Source: Verrucomicrobiota bacterium (GTDB taxonomy: Bacteria > Verrucomicrobiota > Verrucomicrobiia > Limisphaerales > CANJSG01). Taken from it: a DNA stretch of 50,729 bases. This document shows positions 6,064-43,195 of this stretch, in pieces. The notes below the pieces were generated by a model that did not search any database, had not been told where the DNA came from, and saw nothing but the letters and a program-made list of their open reading frames with translations. Positions within the stretch are counted from its first letter, which is position 1. Every line of letters begins with the position of its first letter. The stretch spans positions 1 through 50,729 of the forward strand of contig JBBQXJ010000030.1 of NCBI GenBank assembly GCA_038209745.1, given 5' to 3'. The position numbers were made by a program, and so were the translations under genes.

Positions 6064-6156
6064 GGAACAATCTCTTTCGACGACCAAGCGAACCGGGGAT
6101 CTGCGAAGAGCCCGGCTCCACCGACTGCCGACGCGGTTCGGCAAAGCAGGGAAAAG

Positions 6157-6218
6157 CGCCGCACCCCGTCCCTCTCCCCATCGGACTGTGAGAGGGTGGC
6201 CGAAGGTCGGATGAGGGG
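6157..6218. repeat. CCCTCTCCCC/GGGAGAGGG-type palindromic intergenic repeat, copy 1
   Basis: CACCCCGTCCCTCTCCCCATCGGACTGTGAGAGGGTGGCCGAAGGTCGGATGAGGGG, clearly homologous to 40755-40816. Confidence 0.75.
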
Positions 6219-6291
6219 CCGCACAGGGTTCAGCATGTCGATTTCCTCAAAGCTCGCGTCAGACGAAGCCTCGCATCGGTCTTCACGTTCA

Positions 6292-40633: not shown

Positions 40634-40654
40634 CGGCAGGTGTCCCACCTGCCG
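40630..40654. repeat. GTAG-hairpin REP-like element
   Basis: GTAG followed by CGGCAGGTG-TCC-CACCTGCCG, a perfect 9-bp stem overlapping the methyltransferase stop codon. Confidence 0.6.
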
Positions 40655-40754
40655 TAAAGACAGGGCCTCCAGTCCGCCGGACCGGAACGCCACGTCAAGC
40701 CAGCCCACGGATTCCCGGTCTCGAACGGGGACGGGGTGGATAAATCAGGAGAAG

Positions 40755-40816
40755 CCCCTCACTCCGCCCCTCTCCCCATCGAATGGGGAGAGGATGGCAG
40801 AAGGTCGGGTGAGGGG
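40755..40816. repeat. CCCTCTCCCC/GGGGAGAGG-type palindromic intergenic repeat, copy 2
   Basis: CCCCTCACTCCGCCCCTCTCCCCATCGAATGGGGAGAGGATGGCAGAAGGTCGGGTGAGGGG, nested inverted repeats; homologous to 6157-6218. Confidence 0.8.
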
Positions 40817-41035
40817 ACGCCCCCGATTCAACGAGGCTATTCCCGCTTTTGGCCTTTCACGGCCCCGTTCCCGCGATTGCGGACACTATTTGTCCTGCAA
40901 CCGGCAGATTTTGCCCTAAGAAGGTGCATTTTGCCGATCAGTGGGCGTGTTTAGCAGATCGTCCGGGCCGTTGTTCTTGTTTCGAGACACCTTCGGCAGG
41001 TCGGAGGCGGGTCGGGGACTCCCTTCGGAGAGAGG

Positions 41036-41266
41036 CCGACGGGAAGCGACCGCCGCCCCACGATTAGCCAAGAGCTGCGGAAGAGTTGCGGCGTGGGGAG
41101 CAGGGTCGTTCCCGTCGTTGGGAAGAGCGTCGGAGTGCTTCGGAGGATCGCGGTCGGGGTGAAGAAGACCGTCGGCCCGGCCAAGACGGTTTGCGGAGAC
41201 CCAGCGACAATGGAAGAAACGGGGCGGACGAGCGCGGCCAGGCGGGAGAAGATCGTCGGCGACCTG
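41036..41266. repeat. Degenerate tandem array of 11 x 21-nt units
   Basis: GAAGA/GAGGA/GACGG-type cores recur at 41038, 41059, 41080, 41101, 41122, 41143, 41164, 41185, 41206, 41227 and 41248 (exact 21-nt spacing); unit position 4 is A in all 11 units. Confidence 0.75.
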
Positions 41267-41580
41267 CCGTTTTGATGGTCGGAACGGTGCGCGGAGTCTG
41301 GTCCGCGAGCGGGGCGCTTCGTGTTTGGACCCCCAAAAGTCGTCGCAGAGGGGTGTCTCACCGCGCAGCCAGACAGCGCGTCCGAGCAGGCGGCGGAGCG
41401 AGGCGCCGCTCTCCAGTGGGGCGGGGTTCCCCATGCGGTGGGCGTGCTGTTGGTCGGGTTGGCATCGTTGCTGCTACGCAGAAGTCGTCCCCGAAGAGGT
41501 TGTTCCTGGTTCTATCCTGGGGATAGGACGGGAGTCTTCATCAACAAAAACTGTCGGTATAAAAAAAGAGAAAAGGAAAA

Positions 41581-42195
41581 ATGCCTAATTATCGCGTATC
41601 TCTGGCCTTCACGAAAGTGTCCGATGCCAGCCTCGGTGAATTCGTCCTCATGGTCGTCGACTCGATGACCAGCAACCCGGCCTATCCGGCCCCGACGGTC
41701 CCGATCCCCGATCTGGCGGCGGCGCGCACGGCCTTTCTGAGCGCCTTGTCCGCCTCCGAAGTCGGCGGCATGCTGGCCACGGCCACGAAAAACGAGTCCC
41801 GGGAAGCGCTGCTGAAGCTCATGCGCAAGCAGGCCGCCTATGTGCAGGGGGAGATGGGCGACGACTTCGCCACCCTTCTCTCCTCCGGATTCGAGAGCGT
41901 GAGCCGTAACCGAACCCGGATCCAACTGCCCCCGCCTCGGGTGGAGCGCATCCGCAACGAACGCAGCGCCCAACTGGTGGTGGACCTGGCTCCGATGGCC
42001 AATGCCCGGGCCTACGAGGTGCAGAAAATGAACGGCACTGGAGGTTGGATGCCCGTGGGCATCTTCACCCAGTCCCGGCGTATCGTGCTGGAGGGATTGA
42101 ACCCGGGCTCGATCTATACCGTGCAGGCCCGGGCCGTCGGGGGCACCACCGGCTACAGCGACTGGAGCGACCCGGTGTCCCACATGTCGTTGTAG
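41581..42195 (+). CDS. Helical N-terminal domain + C-terminal fibronectin type III-like protein, no signal peptide
   Basis: 204 aa; amphipathic helices ending LLSSGF, then ARAYEVQ..W...LEGLNPGSIYTVQARAVGG..GYSDWSDPV (FN3 pattern); purine/A-rich leader just before the ATG. Confidence 0.85.
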   Translation: MPNYRVSLAFTKVSDASLGEFVLMVVDSMTSNPAYPAPTVPIPDLAAARTAFLSALSASEVGGMLATATKNESREALLKLMRKQAAYVQGEMGDDFATLLSSGFESVSRNRTRIQLPPPRVERIRNERSAQLVVDLAPMANARAYEVQKMNGTGGWMPVGIFTQSRRIVLEGLNPGSIYTVQARAVGGTTGYSDWSDPVSHMSL

Positions 42196-42207
42196 GTTGG
42201 AGTCGGG

Positions 42208-42313
42208 ATCTTCCCCCGCTCCGGCGCATGGCTCCGGGGCGGGAGAAGATGGGGCGGACCGGCAAGGTCCGCCCTGCTTGGAATAGGGGTGGGGCGGCGC
42301 TGCCGCGCCGCCC
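42208..42313. other. Three consecutive GC-rich stem-loops downstream of the FN3-like gene
   Basis: 42208-42224/42234-42250 (17 bp, 15 Watson-Crick), GGGCGGACC/GGTCCGCCC (42252-42274) and GGGCGGCGC/GCGCCGCCC (42292-42313); no U-tract. Confidence 0.7.
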
Positions 42314-42427
42314 TGATCATCGCGGAGCGGAGCGATGCGTTCTGGAAGCGGAAGAATGTCGCTTCCACCCGACCGCGTTGCGCGGGTCGAGCGGAGAGAC
42401 GGGACGCGTCTGGTCCGGCAACGCAAG

Positions 42428-42630
42428 CAGGACACCGAAGTCGCCATCCTCGACATCCGCAACCGGGTCGCGTCCCGGATCGACGAACTGGCGATGGGTG
42501 CCGGTCCATGAGGTGGACCTGACCGACCACGCATGCGTCCGGACGTTATCGGGGAACTGAGGCCCGAGGTGGTCTCCCATCTGGCGGCCATCCATTTTTT
42601 CCCGGAATGCAACGGCGATCCGAACGCACC
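42428..42630 (+). pseudogene. Frameshifted fragment of an NAD-dependent epimerase/dehydratase N-terminal region
   Basis: Pieces in different frames: DTEVAILD..., HEVDLTDHACVR, VIGELRPEVVSHLAAIHFFPECNGDP. Confidence 0.6.
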
Positions 42631-42649
42631 TTGCGGATCAACAGGGATG

Positions 42650-43195
42650 CGGGCGGAACTCGTCTTGCTGGGGCCTACCCTGTCTACAATTCGAACGTCG
42701 GCTGGGCCTCGGCCTATCTGGGCCAGCCCGACGCCAGCCAATATCTAGCCACCCTGAAACTGATGCAGGTGCTGATGATGGTCTGCGGGTTGCTCGGGGC
42801 CACCCAAGTGCCAAATTTGGCGCGATGGATGGCCGCCGGCGAGCCCCGGTAGGCATGGCGTTATTCCTCCGCCGGAATTGTCTCGGGCTCTGGCTGTAGT
42901 GAGACCGGTTGCTGGCTTGGATGGGATCCCATAATACCCTCTTGCCCGGGCCACTCCTGCTCTTCATGGGACTGATCTACGTGCTGGAGTTAAACCACGT
43001 CTATTTCGCGACCTTGGTCATGACCCGGAACGAAGTGCCGTTTGTCTGGGTGGCGACCATTTCCGGAATGGCCATTTGCGGGGATGGGGGCTTGTTGGTT
43101 CAGACTTTTGGTCATTGGTGCTTGTTGGGCAATGCGTTTGTAGTCCAAGCTGCTCGGAACAACTGGTGGGTCCCGTGGTTGGCGATACGATCCAA
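42650..43195 (+). pseudogene. Decayed duplicate of the 3' third of the wzx-like gene (about 38238-38815)
   Basis: Long near-identical blocks (e.g. ACCTTGGTCATGACCCGGAACGAAGTGCCGTTTGTCTGGG), CAG changed to TAG at 42850-42852, frameshifts and a short deletion. Confidence 0.92.

What the first reader, a model, noticed from the sequence alone, without database searches (positions are those of the whole stretch)
41036..41266. Cryptic 21-nt periodic array (11 units) with conserved phase but highly variable sequence
Seen, in 21-nt register from 41036: ccgacgggaagcgaccgccgc / cccacgattagccaagagctg / cggaagagttgcggcgtgggg / agcagggtcgttcccgtcgtt / gggaagagcgtcggagtgctt / cggaggatcgcggtcggggtg / aagaagaccgtcggcccggcc / aagacggtttgcggagaccca / gcgacaatggaagaaacgggg / cggacgagcgcggccaggcgg / gagaagatcgtcggcgacctg. 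Position 4 is always A, the core approximates GA(A/C)GA.CGTCGG, and there are no indels. It is neither CRISPR nor a fresh VNTR. The minus frame (ORF 40951-41361) gives heptads such as SPTIFSR, GPTVFFT, TPTLFPT, TPQLFRS; the plus frame (ORF 41093-41275) gives GKSVGVL, KKTVGPA, EKIVGDL. Inference: either a fast-evolving heptad-repeat peptide, or phased binding sites two helical turns apart, or a repeat RNA.
Basis: partly seen in the sequence, partly recalled or inferred. Interest (0 to 1): 0.8.

Follow-up and report, generated by a model that had tools for sequence, protein, structure and literature searches.

The report
Phased 21-bp array before sigma-54 gene
The faint 21-base rhythm is real and is a worn-down copy of a repeat array that sits in front of almost every member of a small fibronectin-domain gene family in Verrucomicrobia, most likely a non-coding row of evenly phased protein-binding sites that controls the gene.

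Summary
The 11 units are in the sequence as written, and lag-21/42/63 autocorrelation beats all 1000 shuffles (z 4.8, 4.3, 4.0). The stretch ranks among the 23 most 21-periodic regions of the 4.58-Mb genome.

The two paralogues of the 41581-42195 gene carry clean period-21 arrays at the same upstream place. So do 36 of 45 loci in relatives and 45 of 53 unrelated metagenome loci, against 3 of 50 downstream flanks. Unit sequences differ from locus to locus.

The arrays do not behave like coding DNA:
- No codon-phase bias in unit variation (3 of 85 arrays p<0.05).
- No GC3 signature.
- The window array's codon usage is below the 5th percentile of real genes.
- Composition is strand-symmetric.
- Many units are palindromes.

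A sigma-54 -24/-12 motif lies between array and gene, and it is the only match in the 50.7-kb window (41460-41475).

Best reading (confidence 0.5): a helically phased operator or enhancer array. The binder is unknown. A heptad peptide, a repeat RNA and a neutral minisatellite are not excluded.

The scan noted the same kind of array before on other DNA (e1-2305815, e1-1376017). I found no paper on it.

The parts
40847..40990 (.). Weaker, more decayed block of 21-nt periodicity upstream of the main array. It contains the direct repeat GCAGATTTTGCC / GCATTTTGCC.
   Evidence: Sliding lag-21 identity is 0.44-0.48 at starts 40847-40889. The automatic array finder picked -693..-607 relative to the gene here. 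The sequence was read.
41036..41266 (.). Main degenerate 21-bp periodic array: 11 units, with no indel needed. Conserved features are [GA]GA[ACG]G at unit positions 2-6 (7 of 11 units) and CGTCGG at positions 9-14 (3 of 11 units).
   Evidence: The same place upstream of the paralogues and homologues holds cleaner arrays.
41257..41279 (+). Terminator-like hairpin CGGCGACCTGCCG followed by TTTTGATGG at the proximal end of the array. Its function is not shown.
   Evidence: Consensus scan. A similar hairpin plus T run follows the array on the gene's strand in 11 of 42 loci, against 3 of 42 on the other strand.
41107..41447 (.). Stretch that hardly varies between strains. It covers the proximal 7.6 units of the array and the spacer up to the promoter.
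   Evidence: Metagenome contigs of runs X1, X2, X7 and X13. In contig X1 there are 0 differences here, against 10 in 40787-41106 and 5 in the 615-nt gene. X2 and X7 have one substitution (41347) and a 1-nt deletion (41330).
41460..41475 (+). Sigma-54-type -24/-12 promoter motif TGGCATCGTTGCTGCT, 105 nt before the start codon.
   Evidence: It is the only match to TGGCAYNNNNNNTGCW on either strand of the 50,729-nt window (0.24 expected). Both paralogues have the same motif at -115 and -113. The motif is strand-biased across the family: 33 sense against 6 antisense hits and 38 against 7. The genome has one sigma-54 gene and 13 Sigma54_activat matches.
41476..41580 (+). Putative 5' leader. It holds a small hairpin (41510-41517 pairs with 41521-41528) inside GTTGTTCC...GGGAG, and a Shine-Dalgarno-like AAGGA before the ATG.
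   Evidence: Read from the sequence. Similar GTTCC-hairpin-GGGAG leaders were seen by eye in C26, C80 and genus relatives. In one genus the leaders are nearly identical between species. This was not modelled.
41581..42195 (+). Gene for a 204-aa protein with an N-terminal helical bundle and a C-terminal fibronectin type III domain. This is the gene family that the arrays accompany.
   Evidence: ORF. Pfam fn3 E 2.9e-4, 21.4 bits, below the 25-bit cut-off. AlphaFold2 pLDDT 85.8 for the whole protein and 93.8 for the N-domain. Foldseek matches FN3 domains only. 467 homologues, named only 'hypothetical' or 'fibronectin type III domain-containing'.

Best explanation
The stretch is an old, diverged copy of a non-coding tandem array of 21-bp units, that is, two turns of the DNA helix per unit. 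Such an array belongs to a self-contained module: array, then a sigma-54-type promoter, then a short leader, then a small FN3-domain gene. The module occurs one to ten times per genome in Verrucomicrobiota.

Proposed mechanism. Each unit is one site, often an imperfect palindrome, for a dimeric or oligomerising DNA-binding protein. Because the sites repeat every two helical turns, they all face the same side of the DNA. The protein can therefore load cooperatively as a row and act on the nearby sigma-54 promoter by looping, either as a very long enhancer or as an operator row.

Unit sequences turn over quickly by expansion, contraction and homogenisation, while the period and the position stay fixed. 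In this window homogenisation has stopped. Only the phase, a [GA]GA[ACG]G core and a few CGTCGG remain.

Shown: the periodicity, the association with the gene family, the non-coding evolutionary signature, and the promoter motif.

Inferred: that a protein binds, which protein it is, and whether the effect is activation or repression.
For: 1. Association with the gene family.
- Both paralogues in the genome (C26 and C80, 54% and 51% identical) have clean period-21/42 arrays 250-700 nt before the start codon.
- Of 45 distinct loci from relatives with at least 300 nt upstream, 36 score at least 0.6 at lag 21/42/63/84, 6 score 0.52-0.59 and 3 have none.
- In an independent set of 53 distinct metagenome loci (at most 56% identical proteins), an unbiased scan of lags 5-100 finds at least 0.6 in 45. 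The best lags are 21 (16 loci), 42 (11), 63 (10), 84 (4), 7 (3) and 65 (1). Only 3 of 50 downstream flanks reach 0.6, at lags 16, 51 and 83.
- Only the coding region is alike between the three paralogous loci at DNA level.

2. Not coding-like.
- Variation among units shows no codon-phase bias: 1 of 42 arrays at p<0.05 and 2 of 43 (KS p 0.47 against uniform).
- Mean autocorrelation peaks only at 21, 42 and 63, and lag 3 is not raised.
- Arrays have GC 0.53 and 0.46, against 0.82 and 0.76 at the third codon position of the adjacent genes. Only 4 of 31 and 2 of 27 arrays have any phase within 0.1 of the gene's GC3.
- The window array's best codon-usage log-odds are 0.046 and -0.016. True in-frame 231-nt chunks give 0.487 +/- 0.187, with a 5th percentile of 0.186.
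- Orthologous arrays differ by 42-nt blocks, their flanks carry 1-nt indels, and one of three orthologues has a premature stop.
- In a second orthologue set, the ORF part before the array changes at codon positions 11:6:10, with 7 of about 23 codon changes synonymous.

3. Points to the DNA level.
- No strand asymmetry in 85 arrays: T>A in 46 and G>C in 42. RNA fold energy is lower on the sense strand in 48 of 85 (p 0.09).
- Consensus units hold more inverted-repeat pairs than shuffled units: 5.31 against 4.00, with 13 of 42 at P<=0.05.
- Several units are 11-13-bp palindromes around GT(C/G)AC whose arms differ between loci.
- TTCC/GGAA occurs at least 0.5 times per unit in 17 of 42 arrays (2.5 expected) and in 10 of 43 (2.7 expected). 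The window array has 0.45 per unit.

4. Promoter.
- The sigma-54 motif lies on the sense strand between array and gene in 25 of 49 and 26 of 43 loci.
- It is the single match in the whole window.
- The genome has sigma-54 and 13 activator matches.
- In a few loci the motif lies upstream of the array instead: L052, L124, and the L113 group, where it is the best conserved part. This fits a position-flexible enhancer. That sigma-54 enhancers work from either side is recalled knowledge, not from a call.

5. Constraint in strains. There are 0-1 substitutions in 41107-41447, against 10 in the 320 nt before it.

6. Precedent. BvgA dimers bind every 22 bp on one helix face, six at the ptx promoter, at sites with little sequence consensus (passages of PMC7250471).
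Against: - No binding protein is identified, and no DNA-binding gene is a conserved neighbour. The upstream neighbours in 36 loci are heterogeneous: Mrr, PadR (twice), Wzy_C, TPR, GNAT, ParA-like and others. None of the 13 activator matches lies on contigs C30, C26 or C80.
- Three paralogous loci in one genome have unrelated units, which a single sequence-specific binder does not explain.
- The window's own consensus unit has no significant palindrome (4 pairs, P 0.99).
- There is no excess 10.5-bp periodicity of A/T inside units.
- The period is always a multiple of 21 or 7, never 20 or 22, and only 2 of 42 arrays show a 1-nt register shift. Helical phasing alone would tolerate +/-1, whereas a reading frame would not.
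- At least 95% of the array core is open in a sense frame in 37 of 42 arrays, against 27.0 +/- 2.8 in column-permuted controls (0 of 300). Long sense ORFs of 195-249 codons span some arrays.
- The window array has a GC3-like phase: 0.82 against the gene's GC3 of 0.84.
- The distance from array to promoter varies from about 20 to 420 nt.
- In some loci the array ends about 35 nt before the gene, so there it must be transcribed or must itself hold the promoter.
- The sigma-54 promoter is a motif match only.
Confidence: 0.5

Rival explanations
1. The array is the repeat part of a small gene on the same strand as the FN3 gene, encoding a fast-evolving heptad-repeat peptide. In the window this would be the xK(T/S)V(G)xx frame of the plus ORF 41093-41275, or the minus frame xPT(I/V/L)Fxx. 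The 21-nt period is kept because it preserves the reading frame.
For: - The period is strictly 21 or a multiple, and register shifts occur in only 2 of 42 arrays.
- A sense frame is open over at least 95% of the core in 37 of 42 arrays, against 27.0 +/- 2.8 expected.
- The best sense frame has 8 stops against 25.5 in permuted arrays, which is more depleted than the general 58% depletion.
- Long sense ORFs span arrays in some loci, for example L122 (243 aa) and L123 (249 aa).
- In the window array, GC at unit positions 3, 6, 9 and so on is 0.82, like GC3 of the neighbouring gene.
- The plus ORF stops inside the terminator-like T run.
- Similar peptides can be read from distant loci: TDKPFS in L057, TDKPLS in L052, SEKPFS in C26 (read by eye).
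- APVKANN arrays elsewhere in the genome show codon-phase bias (p 4e-4 and 1e-5). That bias rests on few independent mutations.
Against: - No codon-phase bias in 82 of 85 gene-linked arrays.
- A GC3 signature is missing in 52 of 58 arrays next to GC3-rich genes.
- Codon usage of all six window frames is below the 5th percentile of real genes.
- Stop trinucleotides are depleted in all frames of both strands, so most of the openness comes from composition.
- No common start codon or protein pattern appears in the best sense frames, and Pfam finds nothing.
- The shared 'peptides' use the same rare codons (CCT, AAA, TTT) and coincide with DNA palindromes, which points to conservation at DNA level.
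- One orthologue has a premature stop, and the flanks carry 1-nt indels.
- Change in the pre-array ORF looks neutral.
- A 1-nt deletion at 41330 in two runs breaks the minus ORFs and the plus ORF 41086-41526.
I did not check this here.
Confidence: 0.1
2. The array is transcribed on the gene's strand and acts as RNA. It would be either a modular repeat RNA with one small hairpin or protein-binding module per 21 nt, or part of a long 5' leader that tunes expression, as the transcribed heptanucleotide repeats do before hmw1A in Haemophilus.
For: - Terminator-like hairpins with T runs follow the array on the sense strand in 11 of 42 loci, against 3 of 42 antisense. This includes all three loci of this genome.
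- In several loci the sigma-54 motif lies upstream of the array, or the array ends about 35 nt before the start codon, so there it must be part of the transcript.
- Many units can form 5-7-bp hairpins.
- Precedent: the (ATCTTTC)n repeat is transcribed in the hmw 5' UTR and acts through RNA structure (abstract of PMC12721329).
Against: - In most loci the only recognisable promoter lies between array and gene: 25 of 49 and 26 of 43.
- Composition shows no strand asymmetry, and fold stability differs little between strands (48 of 85, p 0.09).
- The window array folds no better than shuffles on either strand (z -0.68 and +0.17).
- Rfam finds nothing in the window at gathering thresholds.
- Hairpin arms are not kept by compensating changes within C26, where the left arm varies and the right arm is constant (by eye).
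Confidence: 0.2
3. The array has no function of its own. It is a minisatellite that arose once upstream of the ancestral gene and persists through unequal exchange. That process copies unit length faithfully while sequence drifts. The window copy is simply decaying.
For: - Unit sequences are unrelated between paralogues.
- Orthologues show concerted evolution and 42-nt copy-number changes.
- Orphan period-21 arrays exist without an FN3 gene: C45 and C91.
- The distal half of the window array carries 5 strain differences in 71 nt.
Against: - Arrays are present in most loci over class-wide divergence of the gene (proteins down to about 25% identity), and always on the upstream side.
- The window array has kept its register over 11 units with no indel, although units are only about 44% alike.
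- The proximal 160 nt and the spacer are nearly invariant between strains.
- Shared short cores (TTCC/GGAA) and palindromes are enriched across unrelated arrays.
Confidence: 0.12

Closest known systems
Bacterial sigma-54 enhancers (upstream activator sequences bound by enhancer-binding proteins such as NtrC at glnAp2). The examples are recalled, not from a call; general reviews were seen only as search listings.
   Same: Both lie next to a -24/-12 promoter. The sites are often palindromic and sit on one face of the helix. Distance is variable and position is occasionally downstream. The genome encodes sigma-54 and 13 activator matches.
   Different: These arrays have 4-18 or more contiguous units instead of two to five sites. 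Unit sequence differs between paralogous loci of one genome. No activator gene is a conserved neighbour. Binding has not been shown.
Phased BvgA dimer rows at Bordetella promoters (Pfha, Pptx)
   Same: Head-to-head dimers bind every 22 bp, two helical turns apart, all on one face. Up to six bind at Pptx, at sites with almost no recognisable consensus. The strong site is an inverted heptad, TAAGAAATTTCCTA (passages of PMC7250471). TTTCC/GGAAA is likewise the most enriched core in these arrays.
   Different: The Bordetella promoters are sigma-70 type, with the last site abutting -35. The period is 22 bp, not 21. There are three to six sites, and they are not tandem repeats by descent. The regulator is known there and unknown here.
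Plasmid and phage iterons
   Same: Both are direct repeats of about 17-22 bp at two-turn spacing, with a sequence specific to each element.
   Different: There is no Rep-type gene: the neighbouring gene is an FN3 protein with a plain helical bundle. The loci are chromosomal, inside a polysaccharide gene cluster here, with several loci per genome.
Promoter or 5'-UTR simple-sequence repeats of contingency loci (the hmw1A/hmw2A 7-bp repeats of Haemophilus influenzae)
   Same: Both are tandem repeats upstream of a gene for a possible surface or adhesion-type protein. Copy number changes between close relatives (42-nt steps). Three of 53 loci have a 7-nt sub-period as best lag. The hmw repeat length sets expression (abstract of PMC12721329).
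   Different: The hmw units are perfect 7-mers that are transcribed and act through an RNA hairpin. Here the units are 21 bp, often degenerate, and mostly upstream of the promoter. No length variation of the window array appears in four metagenome runs.
Heptad-repeat (coiled-coil-like) protein genes
   Same: Both have a 21-nt period. This genome has true coding examples among its most 21-periodic regions: C69, C121, C42, C95 and C53.
   Different: Those lie inside long genes with the expected codon signature. The gene-linked arrays lack it.

Membership tests
Sigma-54 enhancer / operator array | A sigma-54 -24/-12 promoter (GG-N10-GC) is close by on the strand of the regulated gene. | tested here: met
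   TGGCATCGTTGCTGCT at 41460-41475 is the only match in the window (0.24 expected). The same motif precedes both paralogues. Across the family, 33 sense against 6 antisense hits and 38 against 7. This is a motif match only; no transcript start was mapped.
Sigma-54 enhancer / operator array | The organism has sigma-54 and enhancer-binding proteins. | tested here: met
   One Sigma54_DBD match (C83) and 13 Sigma54_activat matches. None lies on the contigs that hold the three loci.
Sigma-54 enhancer / operator array | The sites are dyad-symmetric binding sites for a dimer. | tested here: inconclusive
   Across the family, 5.31 pairs against 4.00 in shuffles, with 13 of 42 arrays at P<=0.05. The window's consensus unit shows no significant inverted repeat (P 0.99).
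Sigma-54 enhancer / operator array | An activator binds the sites and is needed for transcription. | not testable with these tools
   Testing this needs footprinting, ChIP or a reporter assay in a cultured carrier.
Protein-coding heptad repeat | Variation is concentrated at third codon positions, or changes are mostly synonymous. | tested here: not met
   1 of 42 and 2 of 43 arrays at p<0.05. The window array gives [24, 44, 25], p 0.017, but the variable phase is the one with the lowest GC. An orthologue comparison gives 11:6:10.
Protein-coding heptad repeat | Codon usage and GC3 match the host genome. | tested here: not met
   Window array frames score at most 0.046, against a 5th percentile of 0.186 for real genes. 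Across the family, 6 of 58 arrays have a GC3-like phase. The window array is one of those 6.
Protein-coding heptad repeat | An open frame with start and stop is conserved between relatives. | tested here: inconclusive
   Sense frames are open more often than in permuted controls (37 of 42 against 27.0), but stops are depleted in all frames. There is no common start. One orthologue has a premature stop. A 1-nt deletion polymorphism lies at 41330.
Plasmid iterons | An adjacent replication initiator (Rep) gene and an origin context. | tested here: not met
   The neighbouring genes are glycosyl- and methyltransferases and the FN3 gene. The N-domain is a helical bundle with no significant PDB match (best E 1.0). 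There are three loci in one genome.
CRISPR array | Conserved repeats alternate with unique spacers, usually near cas genes. | tested here: not met
   Units are contiguous 21-mers without spacers. Pfam found no cas family among the 13 ORFs scanned around the locus.
Contingency locus (length-variable repeat) | Repeat number varies between close strains. | tested here: inconclusive
   No 21-nt indel in contigs of 4 runs over the window array (contigs drop rare variants). There are 42-nt differences between three congeneric orthologues with clean arrays.
Known RNA families (Rfam 15) | A match at the family's gathering score. | tested here: not met
   0 matches in the whole window and no tRNA or tmRNA.

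The most novel reading that the evidence does not exclude
A widespread, undescribed kind of bacterial cis-element: very long (100-400 bp) tandem arrays of helically phased 21-bp sites that accompany a multi-copy FN3-domain gene family and its sigma-54 promoters. Each locus rapidly reinvents the unit sequence by concerted evolution while keeping phase and position. This would imply either a binder that reads shape and phase rather than sequence, or locus-specific pairs of array and binder that co-evolve. Copy number could act as an expression dial.
Probability: 0.4. Interest if true: 0.8.

Novelty: new variant of a known kind. Interest (0 to 1): 0.6.

Why it matters
If the arrays are binding-site rows, they are far longer than any described bacterial enhancer or operator. 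They would also be a natural case where helical phase, not sequence, is what selection keeps.

That would make a concrete question testable: how does a sigma-54 promoter read a 10-20-site array, and what binds it? There are many natural sequence variants to compare.

The finding also attaches a regulatory context to a large FN3-domain protein family of soil and sediment Verrucomicrobia that has no known function.

It explains, too, why such loci break metagenome assemblies: the clean arrays sit at contig ends.

For this window alone, the practical result is that the five open frames over 41036-41266 should not be annotated as genes.

Tried and rejected
- Tandem Repeats Finder at score 30 finds only two 11-nt mini-repeats.
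- A DNA search with 40640-41600 in 40 relatives hits only the dispersed REP-like element, not the array. blastn within the genome finds no second copy of the array.
I used the genome search with the profile instead.
- RNA runs: no RNA holder is listed for the stretch, so expression could not be examined.
- RNA folding of the array is not better than shuffles on either strand.
- The test for 10.5-bp A/T periodicity inside units, as a sign of selected curvature, was negative. A period-7 excess was seen in 13 of 42 arrays, but lag-7/14 identity is not raised on average.
- Idea that the FN3 protein binds its own array: the N-domain model (pLDDT 93.8) is a plain helical bundle with no PDB match at E<=0.001 (best talin R4, E 1.0). 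The whole-protein search returns only FN3 domains. NCBIfam gives nothing, and PHROGs gives only weak FN3-type tail-fibre hits. There is no support, and no disproof.
- A conserved neighbouring regulator gene was not found among 108 upstream ORFs of 36 loci.
- Shared motif between array and promoter in the three paralogues: none seen by eye. TTTGCC is enriched on the proximal sense side (18 of 42 against 5), but it overlaps the terminator-like T runs.
- Search for close orthologues of the window locus, for a direct dN/dS test: the best metagenome relative is 56% identical, and records of near-identical genomes are withheld.
- A genome-contig scan with a distant family member returned only 13 Verrucomicrobiota-type loci, which I did not analyse further.
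- Literature searches found no paper describing 21-bp arrays upstream of FN3 genes or sigma-54 promoters in Verrucomicrobia. Subscription journals are not covered, and no supplements were consulted.
Full report
**1. The observation**

The window is a whole 50,729-nt contig (C30) of a 4.58-Mb, 140-contig assembly with 63% G+C.

Position 4 is A in all 11, position 6 is G in 10, and positions 3 and 13 are G in 9.

- Lag-21 identity in 41036-41266 is 0.443, against 0.293 in 1000 dinucleotide-preserving shuffles (z 4.84). Harmonics appear at 42 (z 4.25) and 63 (z 3.97). No shuffle reaches the lag-21 z at any lag.
- Column conservation (sum of column maxima 138) exceeds all 5000 within-unit shuffles, which give 107.7 +/- 3.6.
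- Tandem Repeats Finder misses the array.
- Genome-wide, the mean of lag-21/42/63 identity over 231-nt windows is reached by 184 of 216,563 windows, which form 23 regions. No region reaches it for base periods 19, 20, 22 or 23.

The signal is therefore real and rare. A weaker periodic patch lies at about 40847-40950.

**2. What else in the genome is 21-periodic**

The top regions fall into three groups:
- Ordinary coding heptads inside long genes: C69, C121, C42, C95 and C53.
- Arrays that read APVKANN, at contig ends: C54, C127 and C14.
- Clean arrays in gene-free DNA: C26, C80, C37, C45 and C91.

The unit of C91, read on its reverse strand (GAAGACCGTCC...), resembles the window's core.

**3. 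The link to the neighbouring gene**

The 204-aa product of 41581-42195 has two paralogues in the genome: C26:26218-26826 (54% identical) and C80:19356-19964 (51%). Both have a clean period-21/42 array 250-700 nt before their start codon. The window array lies 315-545 nt before its gene, so the geometry is the same. Apart from the coding regions, the three loci share no DNA similarity.

A profile of 18 family members finds the family in 40 of 301 genomes sampled from the class, with up to 10 matches per genome.

I examined 48 upstream regions from relatives and dropped three:
- L013 and L019, which are wrong-strand duplicates of two other loci.
- L017, which has only 345 nt upstream.

Three further loci with under 300 nt upstream (L054, L060 and G002_C8) were never scored.

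Of the 45 remaining, 36 score at least 0.6 at lag 21, 42, 63 or 84 over a 63-nt span. Six score 0.52-0.59, the window among them. Three show nothing (0.41).

As an independent replicate I fetched 80 metagenome loci, none more than 56% identical to the window's protein. After removing identical genes, 53 had at least 600 nt upstream. A scan of all lags from 5 to 100 gave a best identity of at least 0.6 in 45 of them. The best lags were 21 (16 loci), 42 (11), 63 (10), 84 (4), 7 (3) and 65 (1). Only 3 of 50 downstream flanks reached 0.6, at lags 16, 51 and 83.

**4. Coding or not**

Several tests argue against a peptide.

- *Codon phase.* Differences among units are spread evenly over the three codon phases: 1 of 42 arrays at p<0.05 and 2 of 43 (KS p 0.47). 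The same test does detect phase bias in the APVKANN arrays (p 4e-4 and 1e-5), although those rest on few independent mutations. The window array gives [24, 44, 25] (p 0.017), but its most variable phase is also the one poorest in G+C, the opposite of a third codon position here.
- *Autocorrelation.* The mean over 42 arrays peaks only at 21, 42 and 63 (0.54, 0.56, 0.52 on a baseline of about 0.25). Lag 3 is not raised.
- *Composition.* The FN3 genes have GC3 of 0.82 and 0.76, while the arrays have G+C of 0.53 and 0.46. Only 4 of 31 and 2 of 27 arrays have any phase within 0.1 of the gene's GC3. The window array is one of the exceptions (0.82 against 0.84).
- *Codon usage.* Scored with a table from 612 long ORFs of the genome, true in-frame 231-nt chunks give 0.487 +/- 0.187 (5th percentile 0.186). 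The six frames of the window array give 0.046, -0.016 and lower.
- *Orthologues.* In three congeneric orthologues the arrays differ by 42-nt blocks and are homogenised within each species. The flanks carry 1-nt indels. One orthologue has a premature TGA in the frame that starts with ATG in the others. Promoter and leader are almost identical.
- *Second orthologue set.* The ORF segment before the array changes at codon positions 11:6:10, with 7 synonymous changes out of about 23 codon changes. The promoter-like segment before it is better conserved.
- *Strains.* Two of four metagenome runs carry a 1-nt deletion at 41330. It breaks the minus ORFs 40916-41434 and 40951-41361 and the plus ORF 41086-41526.

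Some evidence points the other way.

- At least 95% of the array core is open in some sense frame in 37 of 42 arrays, against 27.0 +/- 2.8 in column-permuted arrays (0 of 300). The antisense figure is 31 against 25.9.
- Much of this is composition. Stop trinucleotides are depleted in all frames of both strands (173 against 299, and 214 against 317). The best sense frame is more depleted than that (8 against 25.5).
- Long sense ORFs span some arrays.
- The register is very strict: 2 of 42 arrays have a supported 1-nt shift.
- The best sense-frame translations share no start codon and no common pattern, and they have no Pfam match.

I put the peptide reading at about 0.1.

**5. DNA or RNA**

Across 85 arrays there is no strand asymmetry: T>A in 46 and G>C in 42. 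RNA fold energy does not differ reliably between strands (sense lower in 48 of 85, p 0.09). The window array folds no better than shuffles (z -0.68 sense, +0.17 antisense). Rfam finds nothing.

Consensus units hold more inverted-repeat pairs than shuffled units: 5.31 against 4.00, with 13 of 42 at P<=0.05. Many units in the metagenome set are 11-13-bp palindromes around GT(C/G)AC whose arms differ between loci: CTTCGTGACGAAG, CTTTGTCACAAAG and TCCGTCACGGA.

TTCC/GGAA and TTTCC/GGAAA are the most enriched words, three- to six-fold over column-permuted arrays. They occur at least 0.5 times per unit in 17 of 42 arrays (2.5 expected) and in 10 of 43 (2.7 expected). The window array has 0.45 per unit, with GGAAG four times against 0.68 expected.

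These features suit double-stranded binding sites. They are not universal, however, and the window's own consensus unit has no significant dyad.

In favour of transcription, a hairpin plus T run follows the array on the sense strand in 11 of 42 loci, against 3 of 42 antisense. This includes 41257-41279 in the window. No RNA run holds the stretch, so expression could not be examined.

**6. The promoter**

A -24/-12 motif (GG-N10-GC with at least 5 of 7 further consensus positions) occurs 33 times on the sense strand and 6 times on the antisense strand of 57.8 kb of upstream DNA. It lies between array and gene in 25 of 49 loci. In the metagenome set the figures are 38 against 7, and 26 of 43.

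In the window, TGGCATCGTTGCTGCT at 41460-41475 is the only match to TGGCAYNNNNNNTGCW on either strand of the contig (0.24 expected). The paralogues have TGGCATCGGCTCTGCT and TGGCACCGGTGCTGCT at the same distance. The genome has one sigma-54 gene and 13 Sigma54_activat matches, none on the three contigs.

The distance from array to promoter ranges from about 20 to 420 nt.

In a minority of loci the motif lies upstream of the array: L052, L124 and the L113 group. In the L113 group the array ends about 35 nt before the gene, and the promoter-like segment is the best conserved part. Sigma-54 enhancers are known to work from either side and at variable distance. That is recalled knowledge, not from a call.

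**7. Strain comparison**

Contigs of four sediment metagenome runs cover the locus. No run shows a 21-nt length change.

| Stretch | Length | Differences in contig X1 |
|---|---|---|
| 40787-41106 | 320 nt | 10 |
| 41107-41447 | 341 nt | 0 |
| 41448-41580 | 133 nt | 2 |
| Gene, 41581-42195 | 615 nt | 5 |

X2 and X7 add one substitution (41347) and the 1-nt deletion at 41330.

The proximal part of the array and the spacer are therefore at least as constrained as the gene. The numbers are small, and contigs hide rare variants.

**8. The gene product**

AlphaFold2 gives a helical N-domain plus an FN3 domain (pLDDT 85.8; N-domain alone 93.8).

- Foldseek matches FN3 domains only.
- The N-domain has no PDB match at E<=0.001.
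- Pfam fn3 is below its cut-off, and NCBIfam finds nothing.
- PHROGs gives weak FN3-type tail-fibre hits.
- The 467 homologues are unnamed or called 'fibronectin type III domain-containing', from Verrucomicrobiota and similar metagenome bins.
- The protein atlas also lists Bacteroidota clusters.

Nothing suggests that the protein binds DNA. The upstream neighbours are heterogeneous, so array, promoter and gene form a self-contained module. Here it sits inside a polysaccharide-synthesis cluster of glycosyltransferases, a methyltransferase and Wzy.

**9. Verdict**

- *Most likely (about 0.5):* the array is a non-coding row of helically phased sites, working like an extended sigma-54 enhancer or operator row. 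The window copy is an old, no longer homogenised member.
- *Closest documented mechanism:* the row of BvgA dimers every 22 bp on one helix face at weak, consensus-poor sites (passages of PMC7250471).
- *Closest analogue if the array is transcribed:* the hmw1A heptamer repeats (abstract of PMC12721329).
- *What remains unexplained:* why the period is always exactly 21 or a multiple, why one sense frame is unusually open, and what could bind such different units within one genome.

Two earlier notes of this scan describe the same kind of array on other DNA. One concerns Verrucomicrobia-like bacteria (e1-2305815). The other concerns Acidobacteria, with a 20-bp period and an adjacent activator gene (e1-1376017). 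I reached the association, promoter and non-coding results independently. I did not check the Acidobacteria claims.

My five literature searches found no paper on such arrays.

Noticed in passing
window 40748-40835 (also window 6150-6222): A dispersed REP-like palindromic element (…CCCTCACTCCGCCCCTCTCCCCATCGAATGGGGAGAGG…). It has dozens of copies in this genome and in 14 of 40 relatives searched. Its summed depth in the metagenome contigs is very high, with many loose ends at its borders.
   Followed up: partly
G000 contigs C45:29875, C91:17361, C127:636 and 12 more places: The motif AATACAAAGGGACAGGTCAATAGT occurs 15 times in the genome. It is mostly within a few hundred bases of contig ends, and next to the three orphan period-21 arrays that lack an FN3 gene. 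It looks like the end of a multi-copy mobile element or a recombination site.
   Followed up: no
G000 C54:32190-32600, C127:190-560, C14:69900-70090: Clean 21-nt arrays reading APVKANN, with variation at one codon phase (p 4e-4 and 1e-5), all at contig ends. Their proximal flank (TTTCTGGCCGGGTGGGCC) resembles the flank of the gene-linked array in relative G003_C34. They may therefore be the same kind of array with the gene lost or unassembled.
   Followed up: partly
G000 C45:30013-30201 and C91:16750-17090: Orphan period-21 arrays without a recognisable FN3 gene. The C45 array and its flanks resemble the C26 locus, and it lies between the ends of a rhamnose-isomerase-like gene and a Rex-like gene. 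C91 has one 20-nt unit.
   Followed up: partly
window 41476-41580; L-loci of genus relatives: The leader between the sigma-54 motif and the start codon contains GTTCC-hairpin-GGGAG in the three loci of this genome. In three congeneric relatives, a 190-nt leader that is nearly identical between species carries a hairpin whose arms differ between subfamilies. This may be an undescribed leader RNA motif. It was not modelled.
   Followed up: no
window 42196-43075: About 880 nt without a convincing gene lie downstream of the FN3 gene, before the next glycosyltransferase. The content was not examined.
   Followed up: no
G000 C54:1-872 and C55:1-372: Long tandem arrays of a 15-nt unit (GGAACGGTCGTCGTT and variants, lag-15 identity 0.94 and 0.88) at contig ends. 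They were not examined further.
   Followed up: no
G000 C139:3532-3708, C97:15689-15865, C44:27848-28015: Fragmentary matches to the FN3 family profile: C-terminal 59 residues twice and N-terminal 56 residues once. The C44 fragment lies about 7 kb from a sigma-54 activator gene.
   Followed up: no
window 41330: A 1-nt deletion relative to the window appears in the contigs of two of four metagenome runs (X2 and X7), in the spacer between array and promoter.
   Followed up: partly
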